A DNA stretch of 64,000 bases from Gammaproteobacteria bacterium (GTDB lineage: Bacteria; Pseudomonadota; Gammaproteobacteria; Steroidobacterales; Steroidobacteraceae), in NCBI GenBank assembly GCA_003134045.1, contig PLAH01000125.1:31828-95827 (forward strand), in the 5' to 3' direction. The position numbers and the translations under genes were made by a program. Shown in pieces: positions 37,497 to 53,626 of the stretch (its first letter is position 1; the number at the start of each line of letters is the position of its first letter). Under the pieces are notes generated by a model. It had not been told where the DNA came from and searched no databases. It saw nothing but the letters and a program-made list of their open reading frames with translations.

Positions 37497-39026
37497 TCAG
37501 GGCGTGGATGGGCTCAACACACGCCGAAAAGCGGCTATGATCGCCGGTTGTGGACGCTGAATGGCCGGAACATCCTGATAGTTCTGCCAACCACCACCGA
37601 GGCTCTTGTAGAGCTGCACGAATTGCTCGCCTTGGCTCACTTGCGCCTCCGCGTATTGTTCCTGTAGAGCATAGAACTCGCGTTCCGCGTCGACGACATT
37701 GAGAAAATCGGTGAGGCCGCGGTTGTAGCGCGCATTGGCCAAATCGACGGCACGCTGGCCAGCCGTCATGGCGGTCGTCAGCTTATCCATGCGATCCCGC
37801 TGCGCCTGGTATGCATCCAGCGAGGTATCCACCTCTTGAACCGCATTCAGAATCGTCTTTCGGTAGTTGACCAAGCTGATCTGCGTCGCGATGTCGGCTA
37901 CATTGATTCGGGCATCGAGCGCGCCAAAATCCAACAGCGGCCATATGGCCCCAGCGCCGAACGAATAGATGTGTTTGCCAATGTCCGGCGCACTTCCCCA
38001 ATTTTGCCCTTGGCTGCCGAGGGAGCCGCTGATGGTAACATCGGGAAATAGATTCGCGGTCGCAACTCCAATGCGCGCGGTGGCAGCGGCCAATTCTCGC
38101 TCGGCTTGCTGTATGTCGGGTCGACGTTTGAGGAGATCGAGCGGCGCACCCGGTGCGGTCGGCGCCGGCATGGAAGGAATGAGGTCCGGCTTCGCGAGTT
38201 CGTCAATCATGGATTCGGGATACTCGCCGAGCAGCGCAGCCAGCGTGTACTGCGCCGCCTTGACCTGCGCCTCCACCGGGGCGATTTCGCCCTCCAGAGT
38301 AGCCAGTTCGCGGGTCGCTAACGCGACATCGAGCTCATTGGTGATTCCCCGATCGTAGCGGATGTTGATGATGCGCAGCGATTCACGCAGGACGTCGCTC
38401 GCGTGATGCAAAATACCGGCGCGGACCTGAAATCCGCGCAAATCCACGTATGCCCTGACAACGTTGCTGATAACCGATGTCAGCACATCGTAGCGGGCAG
38501 CACGCGCCGCCTGCGTATCCGCTCGCACGGCCTGCAACTCCCGGCGATATTTCCCGAATAAGTCGAGTTCCCAGACCGCATCGAATCCGGCCAAAGTGTT
38601 GATGTGCTGTAAACCGCTGCCGGTGTCCGCCGACCGTAAGACTTGGTCAGCTCTCCCTTTGGTCAGATCGCTGCCCGTCCCCCGGGCCGCAGCTGCGCTG
38701 GCATCGACATCCGGCAACATGTAACCCAGAACCACGGTCTCGTAGGTCCTCGCCTGCTGTAACCGGTCGAGTGCAATCCGTATGTCTAAATTGGATGAAA
38801 CGGCCCGCTCGACCAGGGAGTTGAGCTCTTCATCGTTGAGCGATTGCCACCACGTCGCCAGGTCAACCGGCGCGCCCGCTTGCACATTGTTGCCGTCCTG
38901 CGTCGAGGTTACTTGCGCGGTGAAGGCCGCGGGCTCATCCGGTTTGGGTACATGATAGTTAGGACCGGCGGCGCATGCAGCCAATCCTGTAAAGAGACCA
39001 AGAACAATTGCTCGTAGCACTTTCAC
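37497..39026 (-). CDS. RND efflux outer-membrane factor lipoprotein (NodT family)
   Basis: Track ORF 37497..39110 trimmed to GTG at complement 39024-39026, preceded by GGAGG with a 5-nt spacer. VKVLRAIVLGLFTGLAAC lipobox. NodT-like coiled repeats. Confidence 0.85.
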   Translation of the reverse strand: MKVLRAIVLGLFTGLAACAAGPNYHVPKPDEPAAFTAQVTSTQDGNNVQAGAPVDLATWWQSLNDEELNSLVERAVSSNLDIRIALDRLQQARTYETVVLGYMLPDVDASAAAARGTGSDLTKGRADQVLRSADTGSGLQHINTLAGFDAVWELDLFGKYRRELQAVRADTQAARAARYDVLTSVISNVVRAYVDLRGFQVRAGILHHASDVLRESLRIINIRYDRGITNELDVALATRELATLEGEIAPVEAQVKAAQYTLAALLGEYPESMIDELAKPDLIPSMPAPTAPGAPLDLLKRRPDIQQAERELAAATARIGVATANLFPDVTISGSLGSQGQNWGSAPDIGKHIYSFGAGAIWPLLDFGALDARINVADIATQISLVNYRKTILNAVQEVDTSLDAYQAQRDRMDKLTTAMTAGQRAVDLANARYNRGLTDFLNVVDAEREFYALQEQYAEAQVSQGEQFVQLYKSLGGGWQNYQDVPAIQRPQPAIIAAFRRVLSPSTP

Positions 39027-39039
39027 CGTGGCCTCCGAT

Positions 39040-40386
39040 TCAGCGCTTCGCGCCGAGCGGCAGTTTCGATGCGGCTGCTTCGTTGACGGCGACCACCTGG
39101 CCGGACGCAATCTGACTGCTGATGTTCAGTACCAGCCGATCGCCCGGTTTGACCCCTGAGGCGAGTTCCACCAGGCTGCCGTTATCTCGCGCAATCACGA
39201 CATCGTTGAACGCAATCTTCCCCTGCTCATCAACATGTGCCACCTGCGTACCGGACGATCGGAAAATGAGCGCGGCCGCTGGGACTTCGACCAAACCCCG
39301 TGGGGGTAGCTGAAAGGCGACGTCGACATACATTCCCGGGACCAGCTCGTGCTTGGCGTTGGGCATGTCGACTTCTACCCGCATGGTGCGGGCTTGCGGA
39401 TTCAGCGATTCGGCGGAGCGAACGATCTTCCCGTGGAAAGCCCCCCCGACAGCCCCGGTCGCGCGGATCTCGGCAGGCACCCCGGCGTTCATCAACTCAC
39501 CGGAAGCACTCTGAGGGACATCCACAAACACGCGCAGGGGGTCGGTCTGCGCCATGCGGTACAACGGCGTGGTCGTCGAGCCGCTCCCGGCGGTCACTAG
39601 ATTCCCGACATCGATCTTGCGTTCCGTGACCGTTCCATCGAAAGGCGCCTTGACCGACTTGAACTCGCTCAGAGCGCTGTATTGGTCCACCTTGGATTTA
39701 TCCAAGGCCACCTGGGCATTGGCCGCATAGAGTCGGGCCTCCGCACTTTGATAATCCGCCTTCTTCGACTCTCGTTCTTGTTCCGAGACGACGCCCTTCG
39801 GCGAATCGCGCCAACGTTCGTTGGTTGTCTTGCTGAATTGCGCTTCCGCCTCGCGCGCGCTCACCTGCGCCTGCGAGGCCTTCAGCTGCGCTTTGGCCGC
39901 TTGCAATTCGGCATCTACTTCGGGTGTTTCAATTGTGGCTAACACCTGACCCTTGGTCACGTGGTCGCCAATATCGACCATCCATTTCGCCACATAACCA
40001 TTGACGCGCGCATAGATCGTGGCTTCATACCACGCGGCCGTTTCGCCGGGGAGGACGAGATCTTGACCCACGCTCGCTGGCTTGGCCGTCACTACGTCGA
40101 CCGGCGGGGGGGCCGAATAGGCGGCCTCGCCCTCATTTGCGACGCCGCGTGCATGGAAATAACGGATTACGGTGATTGCCAGGAAGAACGTCACTAACAC
40201 AGCCGCCGCAATGACAACACCGCGCTTGGTGCGCCGCCCGGTATCCGGGGAGAAGGTGGTGGATACGGTGTCGTGTTCCGCCCGCGAAATCTGGTCCGGA
40301 AACTTGCCATGGGACTCGCTCTCAGGCGAATGGCTGGGAATGGTGGGATGCTGGGGATCATGCAATTGCATTGGCTCTACCTTCAA
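39040..40386 (-). CDS. RND efflux periplasmic adaptor (HlyD/MFP family)
   Basis: Track ORF 448 aa. N-terminal TM anchor, coiled-coil ELQAAKAQLKASQAQVSAREAEAQ, beta-barrel region. Start 40386 or 40371, both overlapping the pump gene end (40358). Confidence 0.85.
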   Translation of the reverse strand: MKVEPMQLHDPQHPTIPSHSPESESHGKFPDQISRAEHDTVSTTFSPDTGRRTKRGVVIAAAVLVTFFLAITVIRYFHARGVANEGEAAYSAPPPVDVVTAKPASVGQDLVLPGETAAWYEATIYARVNGYVAKWMVDIGDHVTKGQVLATIETPEVDAELQAAKAQLKASQAQVSAREAEAQFSKTTNERWRDSPKGVVSEQERESKKADYQSAEARLYAANAQVALDKSKVDQYSALSEFKSVKAPFDGTVTERKIDVGNLVTAGSGSTTTPLYRMAQTDPLRVFVDVPQSASGELMNAGVPAEIRATGAVGGAFHGKIVRSAESLNPQARTMRVEVDMPNAKHELVPGMYVDVAFQLPPRGLVEVPAAALIFRSSGTQVAHVDEQGKIAFNDVVIARDNGSLVELASGVKPGDRLVLNISSQIASGQVVAVNEAAASKLPLGAKR

Positions 40387-43300
40387 CGTGCGAATCAGTA
40401 ATTACGACCGGTTGACGGCGTAGCAGTCGATACATGGTCGGAACGAATATGAGCGTCGCCAGCGTTGCAAACAGTAGGCCGCCAATCACGGCTCTGCCCA
40501 ACGGGGCATTCTGTTCGCCGCCCTCGCCGATCCCGAGCGCCATCGGCACCATGCCGAGAATCATTGCGCCGGCCGTCATCAGCACCGGCCGAAGGCGCGT
40601 GTAGCCGGCGGTGGTCACGGCCAGCAGCGGGCTGTCGCCGGCGTCCATCCGCTGGTTGGCAAAGCTCACCACCAAAATACTGTTGGCTGTCGTCAAGCCG
40701 ATACACATGAGCGTACCCATCAGCGCCGGCACACTCATTGGTGTCTGCGAGAGGAAGAGCATCCACAGCACGCCGCCCAGCGCAAACGGCACCGCCATCA
40801 GCACAATCAGCGGGTCAATCCAGCTCTGAAAATTCATGACCAGGAACAAATACACGAGAACGATCGCCAGCCCGATGCCCGTAAAGAGCCCCGTGTAGCT
40901 CTCTTGCATGGTCTCGACTTGTCCGCTCAACGTCACTTTCAAAGCCGTCGACGCCGCGGGCTGATGCGCCTTGAGGACCTTCTCGATGTCTCCGGCCGCG
41001 GAATACAAATCGCGTCCTTGGACATCCGCATGAACATCAAAGACGGGCCGGATGTTCAACTGCGAGGTGACCAGCGGCAAGGCTTCGCGGCCGAAGGACG
41101 CCAAATTCAAGAGCAATTGTCCGGAACTCGAACCCCCTGAGGAGGTGACCGGCATGGTTTCCAGATCCTGCGAAGAGCCGATTCGGTAGGTCGGGACCTG
41201 CACGACCAATGCGTAGCTCACGCTGTTGCGCGGATCGACCCAAAAATTGGGGGCCGTCTGGGCGCTAGAGTTGGTCGCTACCAGCACGTTATTGGCCGCC
41301 TCCTGCTGCGTCACGCCGGTCTGGGTCGCCAACGTGCGATCCATATCGACGGTCAGCACCGGCGCGTTGGGAACCTGAAACACGTGCGAATCCACGACGC
41401 CGGCGACTCGTGTGAGGGAGCGCGCTATCTCCGAGGCCAGCGCAAACGCTTTGTCTTGGTCCGGGCCGGAAATGCGAACATCGATGGGTGCTGGCTGGCC
41501 GAAGTTCAAGACCTGGTCCACGATGTCGGCCGGCTGAAAGAAGAATTGAAGTTGGGCGAATTGCGCCGGCAACTCGCGCCGTAGCATGGCCACGATTTTC
41601 GCCGTCGGTGTGTGCTTCTCCGTCAATGAGATTAAAATCTCACCGTCCATGGGACCGACCGTGGCCGAATCGCTCAGCGCGATATTGATGCCGCTGTAAG
41701 GTAGCCCGATATTGTCGAGCATCACGTCGATCTGATCGTTGCCGACCAGCTTGCGGATCTGCGTCTCCACTTCGGCGAAATATTGTTGCGTCCGCTCGAG
41801 ACGTGTGCCGGGAGGCGCCCTGACGTGCAAGCGCATTTGACCGGCGTCCACCTGCGGGAAGAAATCTCGGCCCAGAAACGGGAACAGCGCCGCCGACACC
41901 GCAATGAGGGCCAAGAAGGCAATAACCGTGAGTCGTGCCTCGGAGAGAGCCCATGACAGGACATTTCGATAGTTTTCCCGAAATCGCTCAAACCCGCGTT
42001 CGAAGGCCGCTTGAAAGCGCACGAGCACGTTTTTTGACGGCGCCTCGGGCGGTCCAGGCGTATGCGACGACTTGTCGATGAATTCATGAACCGCGCCACG
42101 CATCAAATGGTTGAACAGGACCGGTACCATCGTGAACGATAGCGCAAGACTGGCCAGGAGTGAGCCGATCACGGACAACGACAACGGGGAGAACAGGTAC
42201 TTGGCCGTACCCTCGAGCAGAAACACCGGTACGAAGACGATACAGATGCACAACGTCGATAAAAATGTCGGTACCGCCACCTCACTCGCACCGACGACGA
42301 TCGCTTGATGCAGCGGCTCGCGCATGCCCACATGCCGCTCGATGTTTTCGATCACCACGGTGCCATTGTCGACGAGAATGCCGATTGCCAGCGCGAAGCC
42401 GCCCAACGTCATGGTGTTGAGCGTCTGACCGAGCAGCTTGATGAATAGAACCGCGGTGATGATGGACAACGGGATTGCCGCGAGAATGATGACGGACAGG
42501 CGAACGTTACCCAAAAACAGAATGATCACGACAGCCGTCAATCCTGCCGCCATGCCGGCGCTCAACAACACACTATGCAACGCGGCACGAACGAATACCG
42601 ATTGGTCGAAGAGCGCTTTGACACTGACCTCTTTGGGCAGCACATTCTTGAGATCCTCGAGCGCTGTCCGCACGCCATCGATGACGGCCAAGGTTGAAAC
42701 GCCGCCCGTCTTTCGGATCGTCATCAGCGCCCCGGGGGTCCCATTGACCGAGACCGAGTTGGTTTGCACTTGGAAGCCGTCGTGGACGTGGGCCACGTCG
42801 CGCATGAACACCGTCCGGCCATCGACCTGTTTGATCGGAAAGGCGTTGATGGTATCGAGAACGTCCGGGGAATTATTCATCGCGAGCATGTAGTCTTTGT
42901 CGCCGATCTTGACGTCGCCGGCCGGTAGAATCACGTTCTGGTGTTGTAATGCGTTGCTTACGTCCGATGCCGACAAGCCACGAGCCTGCAAGGCTTGCAG
43001 GTCCAGATCGGCCATGATGACGCGGGGTTTACCCCCGTATGGATAAGGCACCTCCGCACCGTGCACGACCGCGAGCGCCGGACGGATGATGTTCTGCCCG
43101 AGATCATTTAATTTCGTGTCAGGCAGCGATTTGCTCGACAGGCTCAGCTGGATGATGGGCACATCGGTCGCGCCATAGCGCAGGACCAAGGGAGGCGTGA
43201 TGTTGGGCGGCATGTACTTGAGCACCACCAACGCGCTGCTGGCGAGTTGGGAGATCGCTCGCGTGACATCGGCTCCCTCGTGCAGGTAGATCTTCTCGAC

Positions 43301-43570
43301 GCCCACGCCTTGATAGCTGACGGCCTCGATGCGGGAAATGTCGTCCACCAGAGAGGCTAATTGACGCTGGTGCAGAGTCAAAATCCGATTCTGGATGTCT
43401 TGCGCGCTCATGCCGTTGTAAGTCCACACGACGGCGGCCACCGGAATGTCGATCTCGGGGAAGATATCGATCGGCATGCGCAGCGCAGCGCCTATCCCCA
43501 TCAGCGTCACGAGGATCAGGACGGCAACGACGGTGTAGGGGCGTTTCAGCGCAATTTCAACAACAGACAT
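40358..43570 (-). CDS. RND efflux transporter permease (AcrB/HAE family)
   Basis: Track ORF 1070 aa. 12-TM pattern with two large periplasmic loops. GILVDNGTVVIENIERH motif. Confidence 0.9.
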   Translation of the reverse strand: MSVVEIALKRPYTVVAVLILVTLMGIGAALRMPIDIFPEIDIPVAAVVWTYNGMSAQDIQNRILTLHQRQLASLVDDISRIEAVSYQGVGVEKIYLHEGADVTRAISQLASSALVVLKYMPPNITPPLVLRYGATDVPIIQLSLSSKSLPDTKLNDLGQNIIRPALAVVHGAEVPYPYGGKPRVIMADLDLQALQARGLSASDVSNALQHQNVILPAGDVKIGDKDYMLAMNNSPDVLDTINAFPIKQVDGRTVFMRDVAHVHDGFQVQTNSVSVNGTPGALMTIRKTGGVSTLAVIDGVRTALEDLKNVLPKEVSVKALFDQSVFVRAALHSVLLSAGMAAGLTAVVIILFLGNVRLSVIILAAIPLSIITAVLFIKLLGQTLNTMTLGGFALAIGILVDNGTVVIENIERHVGMREPLHQAIVVGASEVAVPTFLSTLCICIVFVPVFLLEGTAKYLFSPLSLSVIGSLLASLALSFTMVPVLFNHLMRGAVHEFIDKSSHTPGPPEAPSKNVLVRFQAAFERGFERFRENYRNVLSWALSEARLTVIAFLALIAVSAALFPFLGRDFFPQVDAGQMRLHVRAPPGTRLERTQQYFAEVETQIRKLVGNDQIDVMLDNIGLPYSGINIALSDSATVGPMDGEILISLTEKHTPTAKIVAMLRRELPAQFAQLQFFFQPADIVDQVLNFGQPAPIDVRISGPDQDKAFALASEIARSLTRVAGVVDSHVFQVPNAPVLTVDMDRTLATQTGVTQQEAANNVLVATNSSAQTAPNFWVDPRNSVSYALVVQVPTYRIGSSQDLETMPVTSSGGSSSGQLLLNLASFGREALPLVTSQLNIRPVFDVHADVQGRDLYSAAGDIEKVLKAHQPAASTALKVTLSGQVETMQESYTGLFTGIGLAIVLVYLFLVMNFQSWIDPLIVLMAVPFALGGVLWMLFLSQTPMSVPALMGTLMCIGLTTANSILVVSFANQRMDAGDSPLLAVTTAGYTRLRPVLMTAGAMILGMVPMALGIGEGGEQNAPLGRAVIGGLLFATLATLIFVPTMYRLLRRQPVVITDSHVEGRANAIA

Positions 43571-43623
43571 GCAGAATCCTCGCTAGCGACGCTTCACTGT
43601 AGACGGAAGAGATCCAAAGGTCA

Positions 43624-43685
43624 GGGGCCAAAAGTCACCATTTCGGAGTGACTTTCGTCACTAATTGAAAGTGACCAAAGTCACT
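43624..43685. promoter_or_regulatory. Three phased copies (23-bp period) of the palindrome AGTGAC-N4-GTCACT upstream of the RND operon
   Basis: AGTGACTTTCGTCACT 43647-43662. AGTGACCAAAGTCACT 43670-43685. Degenerate copy with only the right half (GGGGCCAAAAGTCACC) at 43624-43639. They lie 77-115 bp upstream of the pump ATG (43570, minus strand). Confidence 0.7.
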
Positions 43686-43749
43686 TTTGCGCATGCTTTT
43701 CAGGCGATCGGGCATTCTAGAGCGAGGGGGGTACGTTCCTCGGGACCGG

Positions 43750-44493
43750 TTACCTGCGGTGAGACGCATGCGTACGAGACAGGATTGCAAGCCCCGTTCG
43801 AGTGTTGGCATGGAGCTTTTCCATGATGCGAGTGACATAGTTCTTGACGGTGCCTTCTGCGAAACAAAGTGCTTCACCAATCTGCCGATTGCTCAACCCT
43901 TCAGCGATCAGTTGCAAAATCCTCTCTTCTTTCTCGTTCAATGCTTCAGCGAACAAAGGTTTGGCTGACGTTTCGCCCATGCTAGAAGTGGTGGACGGCT
44001 CGAGTGAGCCGAGTCGAAACTCGTCGGACCGGGTCACCTGGGTGAGTCGGCGGAATTGATCCATCACTTTGCGGGCGATTTGGGGGGTCAAGTGCGATTC
44101 ACCGCGCCGCAATCCGCGGATGGTATCCAGTAGTTCACTCTCGGCGGCATCTTTGAGCAAATAAGCTTGAGCTCCCGCACGGACTGCTTCGAACACCGTC
44201 TCATCGTCGTTTAAGGTGGTTAAAACCAGGACTTGTGTCTTGGGAAACGCTTGTGTGATCTCGCGTGTCGCAGCGACGCCGCCTTTGATCGGCATGTGCA
44301 AATCCATCAAAATGATGTCCGGCTGCAGGAGTTTAGCCAACTCGACCGCCTCCACTCCATTACATGCCTGACCCACCACTTCCATATCGGGTTCCATGGA
44401 GATCAAAAGCGCCGCGCCTCGTCGTACGAGTGCCTGATCTTCAGCGATCACGATTCGAATCGTCGGTGGATTATTGCCCACGGTGGACGTCAT
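43750..44493 (-). CDS. Orphan NarL/FixJ-family response regulator (REC + LuxR-type HTH)
   Basis: Track ORF 43750..44673 trimmed to MTSTVGNNPPTIRIVIAEDQ (ATG = complement 44491-44493). ILMDLHMP phospho-acceptor region. HTH LSNRQIGEALCFAEGTVKNYVTRIMEKL. No histidine kinase gene in the window. Confidence 0.85.
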   Translation of the reverse strand: MTSTVGNNPPTIRIVIAEDQALVRRGAALLISMEPDMEVVGQACNGVEAVELAKLLQPDIILMDLHMPIKGGVAATREITQAFPKTQVLVLTTLNDDETVFEAVRAGAQAYLLKDAAESELLDTIRGLRRGESHLTPQIARKVMDQFRRLTQVTRSDEFRLGSLEPSTTSSMGETSAKPLFAEALNEKEERILQLIAEGLSNRQIGEALCFAEGTVKNYVTRIMEKLHANTRTGLAILSRTHASHRR

Positions 44494-44721
44494 GGTGCTG
44501 ACCTCTCGAGCTAGAAAATTGCCGCCAGTCCAGAAGTCCATGTGTCCCGACGCATCGAACGGTCCTTTCGGTTGCCATCCGTTCCACACACGGCGCCCAC
44601 CAATGCGGCGGCGCACTGGCGTGCTGTCGGCCGTCTCGATACCTTGTTGGCGCGCACCACGTGAACCCCGCATGTTGAAATTCGCTCAACTCCATACTGC
44701 AACCGCTCCTCTGTCGATGGA

Positions 44722-44737
44722 AGTGACTTTAGTCACT
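44722..44737. promoter_or_regulatory. Single AGTGACTTTAGTCACT palindrome upstream of the response-regulator gene
   Basis: Read directly. 229 bp upstream of the regulator ATG, in the 359-bp spacer between the ClC gene end and the regulator gene. Confidence 0.65.
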
Positions 44738-44852
44738 AGTTCACGCTGACTTCATGAGCTTTGCCGCCAGCAGCAGCGGAATCCAGGGATTGCTTCGAGC
44801 CATCAACCCGCGGCGTAGTCGAGCGGCGCCTGTGGCCCCTCCGGATAACCGG

Positions 44853-46184
44853 TTAGTTCGGGGAGGGTCTTCGCTGCTTCTCCAACGCGTCCATCTCACG
44901 GGGCGTAAAACGGACGTCGTAAATCGACCGCGGATCGAGCGAACGTGCGACAACCGTCGCGGCGACCACGGCGATCAGTAAAGGCAGGACAAACGAGCGA
45001 TCGCGACCGGTCAGTTCCATGACCAAGACGACCGCCGAAATCGGCCCATGGGTCGTCGCCGCCAACACCGCTGCGGCTCCGATCACCGCAAAGAGGCCCG
45101 GCGGGACGCCGGGCCAAAACGAGGTCCATGCCACGCCAAGCACCCCGCCCAAGAGAGCTCCAAGCGCCAATGAGGGGGTAAAAAGTCCGCCGGGAACCCC
45201 GCTGCCCAAGCACGCCACCGTAGACAGAGGTCGCAGCACTAAGAGGGTGACGAGCAGCATCGGCGCGATCCGGTTCGTGAATGCAAGCTGCGCAACGTCT
45301 TTGCCGTTGCCAAGTACCTCGGGGTATTTGATCGAGATCAACCCCACCAGACCTAGCGCAGCTGTGGGTGCGGCCAAGCGCAGCCAACCCGCCGGCTTGT
45401 GACGATCCGCCCACGCCACCAGATGAACGTAGCCAATCGAGACCAGTCCCGCTACCGGGCCCGCGATCAGAGCCCAGCAAATGACGGACGGGGAAGACGC
45501 ATATGCTGGAATCACATATGTGGGTGCATTGGGCAGCAAAATCCACGAGATACCTGCCGCGACAGCGCAGGCTAGGAGCGCCGGCAAGATCAATCGCAAC
45601 GCCAGGATGCCACGCAGCACTTCGAGTGCAAACAGAGCCCCGCCCAACGGTACGCCGTAGGCTGCAGCCATGCCTGCGCCTGCGCCGCAAGCCACCAGGA
45701 GCCGTCGTTGCTCATCCGACAATCGCGCCTGGTCCGATAACGCATTCGCGAGGACCGCGCCCACTTGCTTAGGGGCTCCTTCTCGGCCGAGCGATGCCCC
45801 CATGCCGACCACCAAGATCGAGAGCACCGCGCTGCCAAGGGTTCGCAATGCGGGAAGGCGGCCGGCATGCTCGGATATCGCCTCGGTGATGTCGATCCCG
45901 TTGCCGCTCGTCAAGCGGCGCAGAATGATTTGTCCCGCACCAGTCAACCCCCCCGCACCGATCAAAACCCATACATGGCGGTAGGCGGCAGCACTCGCGG
46001 CCGCATCGAGCAAATCAGGGCCGGGCCACATCCACTGCTGTACTTTCCCCAACAACATCGTGAGAGCCACGGCGGCAAATCCTGCCCCAGCGCCGGTCAA
46101 GACCACTGCAGCCCAGAAGGCGAGCGCACCTTCGCTCATGAGCGTGGCCGGGACTCCGAGCGCTTCCGTGTCCGGCGACTTCAT
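44853..46184 (-). CDS. ClC-family voltage-gated chloride channel / H+-Cl- antiporter
   Basis: Track ORF 443 aa. GREGAPKQ and GVPGGLFTPS selectivity-filter-like motifs, about 10 hydrophobic helices. Confidence 0.85.
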   Translation of the reverse strand: MKSPDTEALGVPATLMSEGALAFWAAVVLTGAGAGFAAVALTMLLGKVQQWMWPGPDLLDAAASAAAYRHVWVLIGAGGLTGAGQIILRRLTSGNGIDITEAISEHAGRLPALRTLGSAVLSILVVGMGASLGREGAPKQVGAVLANALSDQARLSDEQRRLLVACGAGAGMAAAYGVPLGGALFALEVLRGILALRLILPALLACAVAAGISWILLPNAPTYVIPAYASSPSVICWALIAGPVAGLVSIGYVHLVAWADRHKPAGWLRLAAPTAALGLVGLISIKYPEVLGNGKDVAQLAFTNRIAPMLLVTLLVLRPLSTVACLGSGVPGGLFTPSLALGALLGGVLGVAWTSFWPGVPPGLFAVIGAAAVLAATTHGPISAVVLVMELTGRDRSFVLPLLIAVVAATVVARSLDPRSIYDVRFTPREMDALEKQRRPSPN

Positions 46185-46301
46185 TCGCGCAAAAACGGCT
46201 TCCGATGCCTCGTCACGATACCCTCAATGACTCGCGAGATCGCGAACCGAATAACCGCGCTCGGACCAGTCGAAAGACCCGCGATGCTTTCACGCGCATT
46301 G

Positions 46302-46520
46302 CTACCGAGAATCGAGGTCAAGGTCCAAAATTACGTTCCGCACATCATCGACACTTTGCGCGGCTCGCTCCGCTTTAGCTCTGGCCGAGGAGTCATTGAC
46401 ATGCCCCGCCAGCTTCACGACTCCGTGATGCACTTCTATCCCGATGGTTGAACAGTCGAGTCCGTCGATAGCTCGCAATTGCTCCAAGACCTGCCGCTGA
46501 ATCAACAAATCGTTCTGCAC
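46302..46520 (-). CDS. BON-domain protein (72 aa)
   Basis: Track ORF (GTG start). IGIEVHHGVVKLAGHVNDSSARAKAERAAQSVDDVRNV is a typical BON domain. Confidence 0.7.
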   Translation of the reverse strand: MQNDLLIQRQVLEQLRAIDGLDCSTIGIEVHHGVVKLAGHVNDSSARAKAERAAQSVDDVRNVILDLDLDSR

Positions 46521-46608
46521 AGCAAACTCCTTACCGTACCCACCCGACGCAGCTCATTCTTCGACCCGCAAGATAGGCTGATGTTCCTCCTTACCCTGGC
46601 CGCGGGGA

Positions 46609-46647
46609 AGTGACTTTAGTCACTGCGCGATCGTGACTTTCGGCACT
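46609..46647. promoter_or_regulatory. Two copies (23-bp offset) of the AGTGAC-N4-GTCACT palindrome upstream of the BON-ClC unit
   Basis: AGTGACTTTAGTCACT 46609-46624. CGTGACTTTCGGCACT 46632-46647. They lie 89-127 bp upstream of the BON start (46520, minus strand). Confidence 0.7.
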
Positions 46648-46925
46648 AGCTATTCTCACCCCCGTGTCGTTGGATGATGCTGCCGGTTCGTTCAATGCGG
46701 GGAAAGAAGGCATCGATGCACCCGGAACGCCGTTGGGGAGCACCCTGAACGGAAAGAGAGACTGTGCTCGTGCTCAGGTGCCTTTGCGGAGCACGCCGCC
46801 GGGTTTAGTCGCGCCCTGTCCGAGCACATGGCCGGCGCCCTTCGCGCCATCACAGAGGGTACATCGCTGTTCATAGACCGCGCTGCCGCGTCCGGAGTCG
46901 GCTGCCATCTCCGGCTTCGGCAAAT

Positions 46926-47144
46926 TTGGGATATCCGCGCCCCGAGGATATCGAGTTTCTAAAGCCGACTCCCGGAGTCGGCGACGCCAAGGTGCGCTTG
47001 GCAGACGGCGAGGTGACGATCAATTTCAATGAGCGGCGAATTTCGGTGGCGCAGCTAACCGCGGCGGTCGAAGAGGCAGGATATGAAGTGGATGGCGCCG
47101 GCCCCGTCCATACTCACCAAGCGCGAGGTGGTTACCTCAACTGA
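46926..47144 (+). pseudogene. Heavy-metal-associated (HMA) domain, C-terminal half only
   Basis: Track ORF with a TTG start. PGVGDAKVRLADGEVTINFNERRISVAQLTAAVEEAGYEV matches the second half of an HMA fold. No in-frame GMxCxxC N-terminus. Another frame upstream reads SGAFAEHAAGFSRALSE, HMA-like but with both Cys positions as Ala. Confidence 0.35.
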
Positions 47145-47165
47145 CGGGACCGCGATGCGGTGTAT

Positions 47166-48137
47166 CTATCGAAGGAGTTTTCGCGGCTTGTGCGGTTGGT
47201 TGATGAGCGACACTGGCTTAGTTCCGGCATCCCATTGTTCGACCACTTTGGCGATGTAACTCAGCGTGCCACTCAGCGTGAGATCCGTGTCACCGGCGAT
47301 ATGGGGCGTGATGAGCGCCTGTGCAAATCCCAGCAGGGGATTATCCGATTTCGCGGGCTCCGTGCGAAGTACGTCCAACCCGACCGCCGAGATCCGGCCG
47401 CTGCGCAACGCCGAACAAAGGGCGTCCTCATCGACCACATTGCCACGTGCGACATTGACTAGGATCGCGCCGGGTTTCATTGCGTCCAGCACCGACGCAT
47501 TGATCAGATTCTCATTCTCATGGCTACCCGGAACGCAGATCACCACGTAGTCCGCGGGGGCGATGGCGCGCTTCAATTCGTTCGCGAGATAGACGGTAAC
47601 CCCGGCGGGTGGCAGAGCGAGGTCTCCGTTGGTCGCGATGAGGGTCACCCCAAATGGGCGCAAGCGCTCGACGAGGTGTCGACCGATGCTTCCAAGCCCA
47701 ACAATGCACACCGTCTTGCCGCTGAGCGCCTGATGGGATGTACTGGATGCGGTAGCTTGATCTATGTTGGAACGGAGAGCCGCGACGAGATGTCGCGATG
47801 CCCCGATGAGCAACATCACGGCAAATTCGGCGACCGACGCGGCGTTACCGGTAAGGCCGGCCGGCGCATTGGACACCCAGATGCCCATTTCGCTAGCAGC
47901 ATCCACGTCGATCGACTCAAATCCGGCGCTAACCGTTTGTACGAGCTCAAGCTGTGACAACGGCTCCAGTTGTGCACGTGCAAGCGCACCCAGCGCAAGT
48001 ACAACGCGAATATCTAGGGCCGGTGCCGTGTTCTCCAAAGGCCACGAAAGGAGTTCGTGGCCTACGAGTACAGCGGTGAGCCCCCGCAATAGCTGCGAGG
48101 CGTGCTCACTCTGGGGATGACGAAATGCCATTTTCAT
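47166..48137 (-). CDS. D-isomer-specific 2-hydroxyacid dehydrogenase family, NAD-binding
   Basis: Track ORF 47166..48221 trimmed to MKMAFRH (ATG = complement 48135-48137). GKTVCIVGLGSIGRHL Rossmann motif, NVARGNVVDEDAL, ITPHIAG catalytic His. Confidence 0.8.
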   Translation of the reverse strand: MKMAFRHPQSEHASQLLRGLTAVLVGHELLSWPLENTAPALDIRVVLALGALARAQLEPLSQLELVQTVSAGFESIDVDAASEMGIWVSNAPAGLTGNAASVAEFAVMLLIGASRHLVAALRSNIDQATASSTSHQALSGKTVCIVGLGSIGRHLVERLRPFGVTLIATNGDLALPPAGVTVYLANELKRAIAPADYVVICVPGSHENENLINASVLDAMKPGAILVNVARGNVVDEDALCSALRSGRISAVGLDVLRTEPAKSDNPLLGFAQALITPHIAGDTDLTLSGTLSYIAKVVEQWDAGTKPVSLINQPHKPRKLLR

Positions 48138-48940: not shown

Positions 48941-49405
48941 GTGCCGGACATTAGTGGTCGCTTGGCCACCGTACTATTGAGTATCGGCCTCATAGCCGCC
49001 TGCCAGACGTCGAAAGAGAGAGTGGCGAGACACGAGGACAACCTGGCCGTGGCGGGCTTCCTCGTTCGACCTGCCAACACGCCGGAACGTCAAGCCATGC
49101 TGGCCCGGCTACCGGCACACAAGTTCGTGCGACATGCGAAAGGCGACAACATACAGTACGTGTATGCGGATCCGTCGGTCTGCAGGTGCCTGTATGTTGG
49201 CTCGCAAGCAGCGTATGCAAAGTACCAGGAAAACAAACAGTCGGACCAACGCATCAAGGAACTGAAGCGCGATCTCCGGGACCATGAGAACGCGGCCGAG
49301 GACGACGACTTCAATGCACAAGTTTACGACGATCCCGCATGGAACTGGAACGCATGGGGACCTTGGGGTTCAGAGTACGGGTACGGACCCGGGCTGGGTT
49401 GGTAG
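48941..49405 (+). CDS. Hypothetical lipoprotein
   Basis: Track ORF 154 aa (GTG start). Lipobox LLSIGLIAAC. Charged middle region, Trp/Gly/Tyr-rich tail. Confidence 0.55.
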   Translation: MPDISGRLATVLLSIGLIAACQTSKERVARHEDNLAVAGFLVRPANTPERQAMLARLPAHKFVRHAKGDNIQYVYADPSVCRCLYVGSQAAYAKYQENKQSDQRIKELKRDLRDHENAAEDDDFNAQVYDDPAWNWNAWGPWGSEYGYGPGLGW

Positions 49406-50170: not shown

Positions 50171-50374
50171 ATGAAAAACTTCTTCGTCAGGCCTGCCCAG
50201 TCGACGCCAGCACCCAGGCCCTCTCGAGACTTGATGATTGCGCTCGCTCTGAAAGGTGCCCTCTTGTTTGCCATCTATCTATTGTGCTTCGGTCCGACGC
50301 ATCGCTTGCCGTCAGACGCTGCCGCGACGGCTGCGGCGCTGATCGGTGCGGCAGCGCCTGAGGAATCTCGATGA
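50171..50374 (+). CDS. Small membrane protein upstream of cydA (CydP-like)
   Basis: Track ORF 50087..50374 trimmed to MKNFFVRPAQ (ATG 50171). One TM helix, RDLMIALALKGALLFAIYLLCF. Its stop overlaps the cydA ATG (ATGA at 50371-50374). Confidence 0.5.
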   Translation: MKNFFVRPAQSTPAPRPSRDLMIALALKGALLFAIYLLCFGPTHRLPSDAAATAAALIGAAAPEESR

Positions 50375-51954
50375 ATTCGTCGAATCTGGTCGAGTTGTCT
50401 CGGTTGCAATTCGCCGCCACCGCGATGTATCACTTCCTATTCGTTCCGCTGACCTTGGGTTTGTCCGTGCTGATCGCAATAATGGAAAGCGTCTACGTCA
50501 TGACTGCGAGACCCATATGGCGCGACATGACGCGCTTCTGGGGAATCCTTTTCGGTATCAATTTTGCCATGGGTGTTGCTACCGGTATCACGATGGAATT
50601 TCAGTTCGGCACGAACTGGGCCTATTATTCACATTATGTCGGCGACATTTTCGGCGTGCCGCTCGCCATCGAAGGACTAATGGCGTTCTTCCTCGAGGGC
50701 ACGTTCATCGGTCTCTTCTTTTTCGGCTGGGATCGCCTGAGCCGCCGCCAGCATCTGTTGGTTACCTGGCTGGTCGCCATCGGCAGCAACCTATCGGCGC
50801 TGTGGATTCTCATTGCGAACGCCTGGATGCAAAATCCCACCGGCGCGCATTTCAACTCGAGCACCATGCGGATGGAACTCGATTCGATTCGGGACGTCAT
50901 TTTCAACCCTGTTGCTCAGTCCAAGTTCGTGCATACCGTAAGCGCCGGATATGTGACGGGTGCGGTTTTCGTACTCGCCGTCAGCGCGTGGTATCTCCTC
51001 AAAGGTCGGCACGTGGAATTTGCCAAGCGGTCGGCGACCGTCGCCATCAGCTTCGGGCTTGCGGCCGCGCTATCCGTGGTCGTTCTGGGTGATGAAAGCG
51101 GTTATACCCTGACCGAACACCAAAAAATGAAAATTGCCGCCGTCGAAGCCATGTGGCATACCGAGCCCGCGCCGGCGCCCTTCACTATCATCGGGATCCC
51201 GGACGCGGCCACGCGCCAGACGCGTGCGCAGATTCAAGTGCCGTGGATGCTCGGGCTCATTGCGACGCGTTCCTTGGATACGGAAGTTCCCGGGATCTAC
51301 GAACTCGTCGATCAGGCGAAAGCGCGGATCATCAGCGGGATTCCCGGCTATACGGCATTGCGTGAATTGCGAAATAACCCGAACGATGAGGCGGCCCGAC
51401 AGACACTGAAAGCGCACGTCGAGGATCTCGGATATGCGTTGCTTCTGCGCAAGTATGTCGCGGATCCTGCAAAGGCAACGCCCGCACAGATAGACCAGGC
51501 GGCCTGGGACACAGTGCCCTCGGTTGGCCCCATGTTTTGGACTTTTCGCGTGATGGTCGGCTTGGGCTTTTTTTTCATCGCCCTCTTCGGCATTGGTTTT
51601 TTTCTCGCCGCTCGCCGCCGAATCGCCCAAAGCCGCACCTTCCTCAAGGTGGCGCTTTGGGCTCTCCCGCTGCCGTGGTGCGCGGCGGAGCTAGGCTGGT
51701 TCGTCGCCGAGCATGGGCGACAGCCATGGGCGATCGAGGGCGTTCTGCCCACTTTCCTGGCGGTATCCCCGATCCCCGCATCGAGTGTCGCGCTCAGCCT
51801 CGCCGGTTTCGTGATGTTCTACACGGTACTGGCCGTGATCGACGTTTTCCTATTGAAAAAGTACGTCAAATTGGGGCCGGCGTCTGACACCTCCCGGCGC
51901 GCGGATGCAACGGACGCCGCTTCGGTTCCGGCGCCGGTCGGCTCACAGCCCTAG
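50371..51954 (+). CDS. cydA: Cytochrome bd ubiquinol oxidase subunit I
   Basis: Track ORF 527 aa. [23 protein letters not shown]-terminus, [14 protein letters not shown] motif. Confidence 0.95.
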
Positions 51955-51962
51955 GAGCGACT

Positions 51963-53102
51963 ATGTTCGACTTCGAAACATTGAAGGTCATTTGGTGGTT
52001 GCTGCTGGGCGTGCTGCTGATCGGTTTCGCCGTCATGGATGGCTTCGATTTGGGTGTCGGGATGCTGCTGCCGTTCATTGCGCGCACGGATACCGAACGG
52101 CGTGTGGTCATCAACACCGTCGGGCCCGTCTGGGAAGGCAACCAGGTCTGGCTGATCCTGGGCGGGGGTGCCATTTTCGCGGCGTGGCCGGCTCTCTATG
52201 CCGCCAGCTTCTCCGGGTTCTATTTAGCCATGCTGTTGGTCTTGGCAGCCCTGATTCTACGGCCGGTTGGCTTCAAGTTCCGCAGTAAAATGCCGGGCGT
52301 GCGCTGGCGTGCCAACTGGGATTGGGCGCTCTTCGTCGGTGGCGCAGTGCCTTCGCTCGTCTTTGGGGTTGCCATGGGAAACCTCATCGAGGGTGTCCCG
52401 TTCAGCTTCGATTCGGAACTACGTGCAACCTACACCTTCGGCTTGTTCGACCTCCTAAATCCCTTTGCCCTGCTTTGCGGTCTGGTGAGCGTAGCGATGC
52501 TCACAACGCACGGCGCAGTCTATCTGGCAATGAAAACCGATGGCGATCTGGCGCGGCGTGCACGTACGATTTCTCGTTATGCGGCGCTCGTCTGGGTCGC
52601 CCTGTTCGCACTGGCCGGGATATGGATTTGGAAGAGCGGCTACGGGATTGCGATCGTGACCGGCGCGCTGCCGGGGGGCGAACCCGATCCGCTCGCCAAG
52701 ACCGCCGTTTCCCGGACTGGAGCATGGCTTGCCAACTACGGGAAATGGCCATTGACCATGCTCGTACCCGCGATAGGCCTGGCGGCTCCCGTGCTGGTGG
52801 CGGCGCTCGCGAGCATCCGTCAGCGTCTCGTCGTGTTCACCGTCAGTGGTCTTGGCATCACCGGAGTCATCGGCAGCATGGGCGTCAGCCTGTTTCCATT
52901 CCTGCTGCCTTCATCCTCGCATCCTGGCAGCAGTTTGACGGTGTGGGACGCCTCGAGCAGTCATCGGACACTGGGCATCATGTTGATCGCCGTGGTGATC
53001 TTTCTGCCCATTATTTTGGCGTATACGAGTTGGGTCTATTGGGTCATGCGCGGTCCGGTGACGAGCGCCTACATCGAAGCCAATCGCGACACGAGCTACT
53101 GA
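51963..53102 (+). CDS. cydB: Cytochrome bd ubiquinol oxidase subunit II
   Basis: Track ORF 379 aa. [34 protein letters not shown]-terminus typical of CydB. Confidence 0.95.
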
Positions 53103-53281: not shown

Positions 53282-53626
53282 ATGCAGATTGATGCACTCA
53301 ACGAATCGGCGGAACGCGCCGCAGAATTTCTGCGCTCGGTCGCGCACCCGGGCCGTTTGCGCATCGTCTGTGCACTCATGGACACGGAACTCTCGGCCAC
53401 CCAGCTGGCACGCCGCGCGCACCTACCGGCTCCGGCACTCTCCCAGCAAGCGGCAATCCTCGAGGCGGAAGGCCTGATTGGGCGGCGGCGCGATGGGCGG
53501 TCCGTGTTCTATCGGCTGGTGTCGCCGGAAATCAAACCGCTCGCCAAGCTGTTGTATCGATTGTTTTGTAGACCGGCGCAGGCCACGGCCGGTCGTCGCA
53601 CCAGGAAAAAAGGAGAGACCTTGTGA
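53282..53626 (+). CDS. ArsR/SmtB-family regulator with a BigR/SqrR-like Cys pair
   Basis: Track ORF 114 aa. wHTH region LSATQLARRAHLPAPALSQQAAILEAEGLI. Cys30 (RIVCAL) and Cys96 (RLFCRP), 66 residues apart. Confidence 0.8.
   Translation: MQIDALNESAERAAEFLRSVAHPGRLRIVCALMDTELSATQLARRAHLPAPALSQQAAILEAEGLIGRRRDGRSVFYRLVSPEIKPLAKLLYRLFCRPAQATAGRRTRKKGETL

What the first reader, a model, noticed from the sequence alone, without database searches (positions are those of the whole stretch)
43624..46647. Phased DosR-box-like palindromes (AGTGAC-N4-GTCACT) define a mini-regulon: RND pump, its own regulator, and BON-ClC
- **Strong copies seen directly.**
  - AGTGACTTTCGTCACT at 43647-43662.
  - AGTGACCAAAGTCACT at 43670-43685.
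  - AGTGACTTTAGTCACT at 44722-44737 and again at 46609-46624.
- **Weaker copies.** CGTGACTTTCGGCACT at 46632-46647, and a right-half-only copy at 43624-43639.
- **Placement.** They occupy exactly three intergenic regions, each upstream of a minus-strand unit: the RND operon, the NarL-family regulator, and BON-ClC. Neighbouring copies are always offset by 23 bp. I noticed no further copy in the other intergenic regions of the window.
- **Similarity to the DosR box.** The core GTGACTTTAGTCAC differs by one base per half-site from the M. tuberculosis DosR box core GGGACTTTAGTCCC (consensus as I recall it: TTSGGGACTWWAGTCCCSAA).
- **Inference.** A DosR-like hypoxia/redox-type circuit in a proteobacterium, with unexpected targets (efflux pump, chloride channel, BON protein), embedded next to cytochrome bd and sulfide genes.
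Basis: partly seen in the sequence, partly recalled or inferred. Interest (0 to 1): 0.8.

Follow-up and report, generated by a model that had tools for sequence, protein, structure and literature searches.

The report
Binding boxes of an efflux-pump regulator
The repeated palindromes are real and are almost certainly the DNA docking sites of the neighbouring two-component response regulator, which probably switches on itself, an efflux pump and an ion-exchanger/BON pair; they resemble the tuberculosis DosR box because the regulator's DNA-reading helix is nearly identical, but nothing points to a hypoxia circuit.

Summary
**Observation: confirmed.** Four perfect AGTGAC-N4-GTCACT boxes, one 2-mismatch box and one half-box lie in three intergenic regions, 23 bp apart (5 hits against 1.15 expected).

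**Conservation.**
- In 80 related Steroidobacteraceae loci, the same box (AGTGACT-WW-AGTCACT) lies upstream of the orthologous NarL/LuxR-type response regulator in nearly all.
- In most it also lies between the regulator and a conserved RND-MFP-OMF operon.
- Of 146 near-perfect boxes, 2 fall inside genes.
- ClC and BON genes recur next to, or fused in operons with, this two-component system.

**Promoter layout.** Each promoter has a box centred near -43, abutting a weak -35. The pump promoter adds one or two strong boxes 22-23 bp upstream of a degenerate proximal half-box. This suggests cooperative, class-II-type activation, as described for DosR/DevR.

**DosR resemblance.** It is real at the DNA-reading level. 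The recognition helix is FLAEGTVKNYVSR in most orthologues, against DosR FLAEKTVKNYVSR. Contact residues K182 and N183 are kept and K179 is Gly, which matches the single GGGAC-to-GTGAC difference.

**Not a DosR system.** The partner kinase in relatives is a periplasmic Cache-HAMP-HisKA_3 sensor. No box lies near the cytochrome bd or sulfide genes, which have their own ArsR-type regulators.

**Verdict.** A new member of a known kind, of moderate interest.

The parts
43670..43685 (.). Distal strong box of the RND promoter (centre about -89)
   Evidence: Perfect match, matrix score 29.8. Relatives have one or two strong boxes at this place.
43647..43662 (.). Middle strong box of the RND promoter (centre about -66)
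   Evidence: Perfect match, score 23.8. It lies 23 bp from both neighbouring boxes.
43624..43639 (-). Proximal degenerate half-box (gene strand GGTGACTTTTGGCCCC), centre about -43, overlapping the -35
   Evidence: Read. The same cGTGACTTTCGGCyCCTGAC element is found in most of the 43 RND promoters examined (37 by the pattern match).
43596..43624 (-). Putative RND promoter: -35-like CTGACC (43624-43619), 17-nt spacer, -10-like TACAGT (43601-43596)
   Evidence: Read. 32 of 43 related RND promoters have CTGACn, then 17-18 nt, then TAnnnT (TAGATT, TACAGT and similar) at this fixed position. The generic sigma-70 scan found nothing, so this rests on conservation and is inferred.
37497..43570 (-). 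RND permease (40358-43570), membrane-fusion protein (39040-40386) and outer-membrane factor (37497-39110): the target operon
   Evidence: Pfam and NCBIfam. The RND subunit is up to 90-91% identical in relatives and directly follows the regulator in about 50 of 80 loci.
43750..44493 (-). NarL/LuxR-type response regulator (247 aa), the proposed box-binding protein
   Evidence: Response_reg and GerE domains. The phospho-acceptor motifs are intact. The helix is CFAEGTVKNYVTR. Orthologues are 68-82% identical.
44722..44737 (.). Single strong box of the regulator's own promoter (centre about -43)
   Evidence: Perfect match, score 31.1. An equivalent box lies upstream of the regulator in nearly all of the 80 loci.
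44694..44721 (-). Putative regulator promoter: TCCATC (-35 position) directly after the box, then -10-like CAGTAT (44699-44694)
   Evidence: 61 of 61 related promoters have xAnnnT (mostly CATGAT) 22-25 nt after the box, and TCCAAA directly after it. Inferred.
46609..46624 (.). Proximal strong box of the BON-ClC promoter
   Evidence: Perfect match, score 29.7. It is followed by TCC..., then 22 nt, then GAACAT (46586-46581), the same geometry as the regulator promoter. This -10 assignment is weak.
46632..46647 (.). Distal weaker box of the BON-ClC promoter
   Evidence: 2 mismatches, score 16.2. It lies 23 bp from the strong box.
44853..46520 (-). BON-domain protein (46302-46520) and ClC-type exchanger (44853-46184): the target unit
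   Evidence: Pfam. ClcA-type exchangers are the nearest solved structures. ClC and BON genes are operonic with the kinase or the regulator in relatives.

Best explanation
**What it is.** The boxes are the operator sites of the adjacent NarL/LuxR-type response regulator (43750-44493). Its GerE-type dimer reads the 16-bp palindrome AGTGACT-WW-AGTCACT.

**How it most likely works.**
- Once phosphorylated, the regulator occupies a box centred near -43 at each of three promoters. That box touches a poor -35 element, so the bound regulator recruits RNA polymerase (class-II-type activation).
- The kinase in relatives is a divergently encoded membrane sensor (Cache-like, HAMP, HisKA_3). In this genome it must be encoded elsewhere.
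- At its own promoter and at the BON-ClC promoter, the -43 box is strong.
- At the RND promoter the -43 box is only a half-site. It is probably filled cooperatively from one or two strong boxes 23 bp (about two helical turns) upstream.

**Result.** A positively autoregulated two-component regulon of an RND-MFP-OMF efflux pump, a ClC-type H+/anion exchanger and a BON-domain protein. This is probably an envelope or ionic stress response. The signal is unknown.

**Shown and inferred.**
- Shown: the existence, conservation, placement and spacing of the boxes; the gene linkage; the helix similarity to DosR.
- Inferred: that this regulator binds the boxes; activation rather than repression; cooperativity; the nature of the signal.
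For: **Enrichment**
- 5 boxes in the window against 1.15 expected.
- 146 boxes with at most 1 mismatch in 942 kb of related loci, where I estimate about 2 by chance (my own calculation from base composition). Only 2 lie inside called genes.

**Co-inheritance with the regulator**
- A box lies about 100 bp upstream of the orthologous regulator in nearly all of the 80 Steroidobacteraceae loci. Most also have one to three boxes between the regulator's stop codon and the RND start.
- Flanking intergenic sequence diverges while the box stays invariant (GTGAC and GTCAC in 142-146 of 146 boxes).

**Regulon conserved through rearrangement**
- Regulator followed by RND-MFP-OMF in about 50 of 80 loci.
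- Kinase-ClC(-BON) and regulator-BON are operonic, with gaps of -4 to +21 bp, in many relatives.
- One metagenome contig has the window's own order: BON, ClC, regulator, RND (L091).
- A second RND operon in L009, L012 and L036 carries its own box or box pair.

**Fixed promoter geometry**
- Regulator promoter: box, TCCAAA, about 17 nt, CATGAT-like hexamer, in 61 of 61.
- RND promoter: strong box(es), a half-box 22-23 bp downstream, CTGACn, 17-18 nt, TAnnnT, in 32 of 43.
- Pair spacing is 23 bp (23 pairs) or 21-22 bp (9 pairs).

**A fitting DNA-binding domain**
- The best solved matches to the C-terminal domain are DosR (1zlj, 1zlk) and 7x1k.
- The helix AEGT[VI]KNYV[ST]R is present in 119 of 120 homologues. 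DosR is FLAEKTVKNYVSRL, with base contacts K179, K182 and N183.
- DevR promoters use tandem, in-phase primary and degenerate secondary boxes, for example at -42.5 and -63.5 (PMC3177182).

**Kinase type.** HisKA_3 kinases pair with NarL-type regulators (established knowledge). This kinase type is divergent from the regulator in 47 of 80 loci.
Against: - There are no binding or expression data. Transcription starts are unmapped, and the generic sigma-70 scan found no promoter. The -43 placement therefore rests on conserved -10-like hexamers of modest quality (CATGAT, GAACAT).
- No cognate kinase is encoded in the 64-kb window, so how the regulator is activated in this genome is unknown.
- The window's BON protein (72 aa, no signal peptide) is not clearly orthologous to the lipoprotein BON of relatives. 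The BON link is therefore at domain level.
- Regulon size beyond these loci could not be measured, because no whole genome was available to scan.
- GTGA-N6-TCAC can formally be read as a CRP-type site.
Confidence: 0.8

Rival explanations
1. The boxes are operators at which the same regulator, or its unphosphorylated form, represses the pump, BON-ClC and its own gene. The signal would relieve repression rather than drive activation.
For: Many RND operons are controlled by local repressors that bind palindromes in the promoter (established knowledge). The proximal box overlaps the -35 region, where a bound protein could also occlude polymerase. Transcription starts are unmapped.
Against: - The -35 elements next to the boxes are consistently poor (TCCAAA, CTGACn) while the box position is fixed at about -43. 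That is typical of activator-dependent promoters.
- A degenerate proximal site fed by strong upstream sites is the DevR activation layout.
- In divergent kinase/regulator regions, one box sits between two outward-facing genes.
Confidence: 0.15
2. The sites belong to a CRP/FNR-family regulator encoded elsewhere, read as GTGA-N6-TCAC. Their position next to the NarL-type regulator is coincidental or reflects co-regulation.
For: GTGA-N6-TCAC is the CRP-family core, and every literature hit for this pattern concerns CRP-type proteins. A loose metagenome scan returned many TGTGAC...GTCACA pairs of clear CRP type.
Against: - The base 5' of GTGA is A or G in 132 of 146 boxes and T in only 4. CRP-type sites have TGTGA.
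- The centre is not free. C6 and G11 are invariant, and T7 and A10 are near-invariant. This fits a GerE dimer on abutting half-sites, as in the DosR box.
- No CRP/FNR-family gene was found among the window ORFs scanned with Pfam or among the conserved neighbours.
- The box tracks the NarL-type gene through many rearrangements.
- Centre-to-centre spacing of 21-23 bp is tight for CRP dimers.
Confidence: 0.05
3. One reading: a DosR-like hypoxia, NO, CO or redox circuit transplanted into a proteobacterium and functionally tied to the neighbouring cytochrome bd and sulfide genes.
For: The box differs from the DosR core by one base per half-site, and the recognition helix is nearly identical. The tandem phased architecture is similar. 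cydAB and an SQR-like gene lie within 15 kb.
Against: - The partner kinase in relatives has a periplasmic Cache-like sensor, with no GAF or haem domain.
- No boxes lie at cydAB or the sulfide/RND2 module, which has ArsR-type regulators and a rhodanese of its own.
- Cyd or SQR neighbours occur in only about 3 of 80 loci.
- None of the recurring neighbour families scanned with Pfam is a USP, nitroreductase or alpha-crystallin gene.
- The full-length protein is closest to LiaR/VraR.
Confidence: 0.06
4. The palindromes act at the RNA level, as hairpins that terminate or stabilise the regulator transcript or attenuate read-through into the pump operon.
For: The tandem boxes between regulator and RND fold into a long hairpin (centroid -25.1 kcal/mol for the hairpin alone; whole-fragment MFE -30.1, z = -3.3).
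Against: - The same box occurs singly upstream of the regulator in divergent promoter regions, and upstream of BON.
- The stem bases never covary. They are invariant in sequence.
- The asymmetric centre flips between TAAA and TTTA, as expected for a double-stranded palindrome read from either side.
- There is no U-tract and no Rfam match.
Confidence: 0.03

Closest known systems
DosR/DevR (Rv3133c) and its Dev boxes in Mycobacterium tuberculosis; OsdR of Streptomyces coelicolor
   Same: - **Fold and box frame.** Same GerE-type DNA-binding fold and the same 16-18-bp palindromic frame. Dev box: GGGACT-WW-AGTCCC. OsdR: AGGGCCGATCGGCCCT. Here: AGTGACT-WW-AGTCACT.
- **Critical bases.** The most critical Dev-box bases, the G next to A and the C (G5 and C7 in 18-bp numbering), are kept.
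- **Recognition helix.** 12 of 13 residues are identical in most orthologues. K182 and N183 are kept.
- **Architecture.** Tandem in-phase boxes, with a strong primary box and a degenerate secondary box near -43, plus positive autoregulation.
   Different: - The middle G of each half-site is invariably T (146 of 146), and contact residue K179 is Gly in 119 of 120 homologues.
- The receiver domain is closer to LiaR/VraR.
- The partner kinase is Cache-HAMP-HisKA_3, not haem-GAF DosS/DosT.
- Targets are an RND pump, ClC and BON. They are not USPs, nitroreductases or hspX.
- Box spacing is mostly 23 bp rather than 21.
- The regulator's own promoter has a single box, whereas every DevR promoter has at least two.
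NarL-family two-component systems that switch on efflux or envelope-stress genes (for example EvgS/EvgA of E. coli, LiaS/LiaR-VraS/VraR of Firmicutes)
   Same: A HisKA_3-type kinase paired with a receiver-GerE regulator. Inverted-repeat operators upstream of target promoters. Autoregulation. Outputs in the cell envelope, including RND pumps for EvgA (recalled knowledge). LiaR/VraR are the best full-length structural relatives.
   Different: The box sequence is different. The sensor has a periplasmic Cache-like domain. The regulon combines RND, ClC and BON. No NCBIfam equivalog reaches its cut-off: MadR 140 bits against 300, NarL 136 against 250.
CRP/FNR-family sites (TGTGA-N6-TCACA)
   Same: They share the GTGA...TCAC core with the same 6-bp separation.
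   Different: The flanking base is A/G rather than T. The centre is conserved rather than free. The sites are linked to a NarL-type gene, not a CRP-type gene.

Membership tests
NarL/FixJ (LuxR-type) response-regulator two-component system | Receiver domain with intact phospho-acceptor residues, followed by a C-terminal GerE/LuxR helix-turn-helix | tested here: met
   Pfam Response_reg 2.4e-22 and GerE 5.7e-14. The AEDQ, ILMDLHMP, VLTT and LLKD motifs are present. PDB relatives are VraR/LiaR, DesR, DevR and NarL.
NarL/FixJ (LuxR-type) response-regulator two-component system | Cognate HisKA_3-type histidine kinase encoded nearby | tested here: inconclusive
   A divergent HisKA_3+HATPase_c kinase with HAMP and a Cache-like domain is present in 47 of 80 related loci. 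None is found in this 64-kb window (tblastn) or in the L091 arrangement.
NarL/FixJ (LuxR-type) response-regulator two-component system | Inverted-repeat operator co-inherited with the regulator gene (autoregulation) | tested here: met
   A box lies upstream of the orthologous regulator in nearly all of the 80 loci, at a fixed distance from a -10-like hexamer.
DosR/DevR dormancy regulon | Operator GGGACT-WW-AGTCCC, with G3, G4, G5 and C7 (18-bp numbering) read directly | tested here: not met
   The box frame and G3, G5 and C7 are kept, but G4 is T in 146 of 146 boxes. Criteria are from PMC3177182.
DosR/DevR dormancy regulon | Base-contacting residues Lys179, Lys182 and Asn183 in the recognition helix | tested here: not met
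   K182 and N183 are conserved, but position 179 is Gly in 119 of 120 homologues.
DosR/DevR dormancy regulon | Haem-GAF sensor kinases (DosS/DosT type) as partners | tested here: not met
   The partner kinase in relatives has dCache_1-like, HAMP, HisKA_3 and HATPase_c domains and no GAF. No kinase is present in the window.
DosR/DevR dormancy regulon | Regulon of USPs, nitroreductases, alpha-crystallin, and nitrate or hypoxia metabolism genes | tested here: not met
   The boxed genes are an RND pump, the regulator and kinase, ClC and BON. There are no boxes at cydAB or the sulfide genes.
DosR/DevR dormancy regulon | Tandem, helically phased primary and degenerate secondary boxes, with the proximal one near -42/-43 | tested here: met
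   RND promoter boxes are centred near -43, -66 and -89, and the proximal one is degenerate. The DevR reference layout is -42.5/-63.5. Positions here are relative to predicted, not mapped, transcription starts.
CRP/FNR-family operator | TGTGA-N6-TCACA with a weakly conserved centre, and a CRP/FNR-family regulator in the genome context | tested here: not met
   The flank is T in only 4 of 146 boxes and the centre CTWWAG is near-invariant. No CRP-type gene was found among the window ORFs scanned with Pfam or among the conserved neighbours. A CRP gene elsewhere in the genome cannot be excluded.

The most novel reading that the evidence does not exclude
This regulator family may be a natural specificity variant of the DosR DNA-reading head. 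A single Lys179-to-Gly change would retarget an otherwise identical recognition helix from GGGAC to GTGAC. If so, it gives a clean, testable entry in the GerE/NarL recognition code. The system would also define an undescribed, widespread soil Steroidobacteraceae stress regulon that couples an RND pump to a ClC H+/anion exchanger and BON proteins under a periplasmic Cache sensor. Its physiological signal (acid, halide or osmotic stress, or a plant or soil metabolite) remains to be found.
Probability: 0.35. Interest if true: 0.5.

Novelty: new member of a known kind. Interest (0 to 1): 0.38.

Why it matters
**Regulator-operator-target assignment.** The finding gives a high-confidence assignment for an uncharacterised two-component system that is conserved across many uncultivated soil and peat Steroidobacteraceae. 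It rests on sequence alone and comes with predicted promoter architecture that can be tested directly.

**Recognition code.** The near-identity of the recognition helix to DosR, together with a one-residue and one-base difference, offers a natural experiment on how GerE-type helices read DNA. Two swaps are obvious: Gly to Lys in the protein, and T to G in the box.

**Scope.** It does not reveal a new kind of regulation. It also does not link efflux or chloride transport to hypoxia sensing.

Tried and rejected
- **Metagenome tandem-pattern scan.** I searched GTGAC-N4-GTCAC-N7-10-GTGAC-N4-GTCAC. The pattern was too loose. Most of the 80 loci are CRP-like TGTGAC...GTCACA pairs or unrelated 22-bp tandem arrays. 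Only L091, L096, L113, L138 and L155 are true relatives, so it added little to regulon content.
- **Ambiguous metagenome hits.** I looked at L149, L161, L112, L131 and L147. Their gene context was uninformative and I dropped them.
- **Literature search.** I searched for the box sequence and for GTGAC-N4-GTCAC notations. There was no NarL-type hit, only CRP papers.
- **Kinase in the window.** tblastn found none.
- **Extra boxes.** A weight-matrix scan for boxes at cydAB, the second RND/SQR operon, the 2-hydroxyacid dehydrogenase gene and the small ORFs at 48350 and 48941 found none.
- **A natural helix variant.** P0003/L081 has SESAVKGYV, but it is a decaying copy. Its acidic pocket reads AEGQ, and an IS21 element sits directly after the downstream box. 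It is therefore uninformative.
- **Rfam scan of 43300-47300.** No match.
- **Generic sigma-70 scan.** No promoter found, so the promoter elements were derived from cross-locus conservation.
- **Pump substrate.** NCBIfam and the transmembrane-helix-4 motif did not resolve it.
- **The longer regulator ORF (start 44673).** Rejected. Homologues are about 240-250 aa and start at MTST..., and a GAGAGG ribosome-binding site precedes the ATG at 44493.

Full report
**1.

Reading 43500-46800 and searching the pattern reproduce every box at the stated coordinates.
- There are four perfect AGTGAC-N4-GTCACT copies, at 43647, 43670, 44722 and 46609.
- There is one 2-mismatch copy, at 46632.
- There is one right-half-only copy, at 43624-43639.

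At 2 mismatches or fewer, the 64-kb window has 5 hits against 1.15 expected, and 0 of 100 shuffles reach 5.

Pfam confirms the genes, all on the minus strand:
- OMF 37497-39110, MFP 39040-40386 and RND 40358-43570.
- A receiver+GerE response regulator, 43750-44493.
- ClC 44853-46184 and BON 46302-46520.

All boxes are intergenic. Neighbouring boxes are exactly 23 bp apart.

**2. The boxes are conserved with the regulator**

- The regulator has hundreds of close homologues (68-82% identity), named only as NarL/FixJ-family regulators of Steroidobacteraceae.
- A scan of one genome per species returned 80 loci, all Steroidobacteraceae or unclassified gammaproteobacterial MAGs.
- Nearly every locus has a box about 100 bp upstream of the regulator gene. 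Most have one to three more between the regulator's stop codon and the next gene.
- In 942 kb of these loci there are 146 boxes with at most 1 mismatch. I estimate about 2 by chance from base composition. Only 2 lie inside called genes.
- The logo is AGTGACT-WW-AGTCACT. GTGAC and GTCAC are essentially invariant. C6 and G11 are invariant. The centre is TAAA or its mirror TTTA.
- Pair spacing is 23 bp in 23 cases and 21-22 bp in 9.

**3. The regulon is conserved through rearrangement**

- The regulator is followed by RND-MFP-OMF in about 50 of 80 loci. The RND subunit is up to 90-91% identical to the window's.
- In 47 of 80 loci a 626-aa membrane histidine kinase is transcribed divergently from the regulator, with the box between the two genes. 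Its domains are dCache_1-like, HAMP, HisKA_3 and HATPase_c.
- The ClC orthologue (70-80% identity) follows this kinase with gaps of -4 to +15 bp. A BON lipoprotein follows ClC, the kinase or the regulator at similarly small distances.
- So the genes that carry their own boxed promoter in the window (BON-ClC) are fused into the kinase or regulator operons elsewhere. This is strong evidence that they belong to one regulon.
- One metagenome contig, L091, has the window's own order (BON, ClC, regulator, RND) with a box pair before the regulator.
- A second, more distant RND operon in L009, L012 and L036 carries its own box or box pair.
- The window has no copy of the kinase. The regulator keeps all phospho-acceptor motifs, so the kinase is presumably encoded elsewhere in this genome.

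**4. Promoter anatomy**

I aligned the promoters on the boxes and counted elements.

*Regulator promoter.* In 61 of 61 cases the box is followed directly by TCCAAA. Then, 22-25 nt after the box, comes an xAnnnT hexamer, mostly CATGAT. In the window these are TCCATC and CAGTAT (44699-44694).

*RND promoter.* The layout is one or two strong boxes, then a conserved degenerate half-box cGTGACTTTCGGCyC 22-23 bp downstream. That half-box runs into CTGACn. A TAnnnT hexamer follows after 17-18 nt. This layout is found in 32 of 43 cases. In the window:
- CTGACC is at 43624-43619.
- TACAGT is at 43601-43596.
- The ATG is at 43570.

*Predicted positions.* With a start about 7 nt after the -10, box centres fall near -43, -66 and -89 for the pump and near -43 for the regulator. 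The BON promoter repeats the regulator geometry:
- a strong box at 46624-46609;
- TCC directly after it;
- GAACAT at 46586-46581, 22 nt after the box;
- a weaker box 23 bp upstream.

*Interpretation.* A box abutting a poor -35 at about -43, with a degenerate proximal site fed from strong in-phase upstream sites, is the signature of class-II-type cooperative activation. These positions are inferred from conservation. The generic sigma-70 scan found nothing, and no transcription start is mapped.

**5. The DosR resemblance: what is real and what is not**

*Real*
- PMC3177182 describes DevR promoters as two to four tandem boxes. A conserved primary box recruits DevR cooperatively to degenerate secondary boxes in helical phase, for example at -42.5 and -63.5. 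The half-site is G4G5G6A7C8T9.
- The bases most critical there, the G next to A and the C, are kept in our box. The middle G is always T.
- DosR contacts bases through K179, K182 and N183. Its helix is FLAEKTVKNYVSRL.
- The window protein has CFAEGTVKNYVTRI. Most orthologues have FLAEGTVKNYVSRI. Of 120 homologues, 119 have Gly at position 179 and keep K182 and N183.
- Among solved structures, the DosR C-terminal domain is tied for the best match to this DNA-binding domain, at 2.6e-10 and about 43% identity by my count.
- One protein difference among the contact residues therefore matches one base difference per half-site. That is suggestive but untested.
- OsdR of Streptomyces uses the same 16-bp frame.

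*Not real*
- The full-length protein is closer to LiaR/VraR and DesR than to DosR.
- No NCBIfam equivalog reaches its cut-off.
- The sensor is a periplasmic Cache type, not haem-GAF.
- The targets are not dormancy genes.

**6. The neighbourhood does not support a hypoxia or sulfide link**

- The weight matrix finds only one weak, chance-level hit elsewhere in the window.
- The cydAB genes are at 50371-53102.
- The second RND operon carries an inserted SQR-like gene, followed by TauE. It is preceded by two ArsR-type regulators and a rhodanese (53282-54577), a self-contained persulfide-type module.
- Cyd or SQR genes are neighbours in only about 3 of 80 loci.
- The rest of the window is housekeeping: arginine biosynthesis, polA, peptidases and an ABC transporter. 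It has no kinase and no CRP/FNR-type gene.

**7. Rivals**

*CRP-type reading.* The core GTGA-N6-TCAC fits. Four things argue against it:
- the flank is A/G, with T in only 4 of 146 boxes;
- the centre is invariant;
- the spacing is 21-23 bp;
- the boxes are co-inherited with a NarL-type gene.

*RNA hairpin reading.* The tandem boxes do fold. Five things argue against it:
- the stems show sequence invariance without covariation;
- the centre flips orientation;
- single boxes occur in divergent promoters;
- there is no U-tract;
- there is no Rfam match.

*Repression instead of activation.* This remains the main open alternative, at about 0.15.

**8. Function**

- The pump's substrate could not be assigned. 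It is a divergent HAE-type RND, below all NCBIfam cut-offs.
- The ClC is nearest to ClcA-type H+/Cl- exchangers.
- An RND pump, a ClC exchanger and BON proteins under a periplasmic sensor suggest an envelope or ionic (possibly acid or halide) stress response. Many of the source MAGs come from bog, palsa and peat samples. This is speculation.

**9. Verdict**

- The DosR-box similarity is real and is explained by a near-identical reading helix.
- The inferred hypoxia/redox physiology is not supported.
- This is an uncharacterised member of a well-known kind of system: an autoregulated NarL-family two-component system driving an efflux operon.
- It comes with a tidy, testable specificity hypothesis.

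Noticed in passing
window 53282-54577, 54894-62687: A self-contained sulfide/persulfide-type module. Two ArsR-type HTH genes (53282-53626 +, 54155-54577 -) and a rhodanese (53623-53967 +) precede a second RND operon. In that operon an SQR-like flavoprotein (59184-60500) sits between the RND and OMF genes, followed by TauE and a PEMT/ICMT-like methyltransferase. It has no GTGAC boxes.
   Followed up: partly
L131 4094-4215 (metagenome contig Ga0208938_1000104, GC 34%): An array of five or six GTGACTWWAGTCAC-type boxes spaced 20-23 bp apart in a low-GC, apparently Firmicute-like contig, downstream of an isocitrate-dehydrogenase-like gene. The same box type seems to be used in an unrelated lineage. 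No regulator is visible in the fetched piece.
   Followed up: partly
L084, L086, L100, L108, L109, L122, L128, L136, L159: Tandem arrays with a 22-bp period of palindromic units such as CGTGACAGTTGTCACGAACGAA, in contigs of 42-54% GC. Several come from one sample (Ga0256406). They are unrelated to the Steroidobacteraceae box and their nature is unknown.
   Followed up: no
L081 10001-13578: The second-closest homologue (P0003) looks like a decaying copy. Its acidic pocket reads AEGQ instead of AEDQ, and its helix reads SESAVKGYV instead of AEGTVKNYV. An IS21-family element is inserted directly after the downstream box, where the RND operon normally starts.
   Followed up: partly
window 44853-46184: The ClC protein has SGNGI where E. 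coli ClcA, from my recollection of its sequence, has GSGIP (central Ser replaced by Asn), and GREGAP around the gating Glu. It is still closer to ClcA (about 1e-32) than to CLC-F fluoride antiporters (1e-15). Its anion selectivity may be non-standard.
   Followed up: partly
window 44494-44721: The regulator's predicted 5' leader is about 190 nt, against about 40-60 nt in most relatives. The kinase gene that usually lies divergent at this position is absent, which suggests a rearrangement that brought ClC next to the regulator.
   Followed up: partly
L030/L071/L079; L043/L051; L070/L072; L062/L066; L061/L078; L006 6001-7635: Several single genomes carry two or three paralogous regulator loci with the same box and different downstream operons: the 90%-type RND, a 47%-type RND, or BON-porin-symporter. 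L006 has two regulator genes in tandem. Cross-regulation between paralogues is possible.
   Followed up: no
window 48941-49405; L016 1101-1621; L026 1476-1826: A 154-aa ORF with no Pfam match has homologues (52-56% identity) near the system in relatives. In L016 the homologue is directly preceded by a 23-bp-spaced box pair. It may be a further regulon member. The window copy has no box.
   Followed up: partly
window 7839-9164: A 441-aa protein with an N-terminal receiver domain and no recognised output domain.
   Followed up: no
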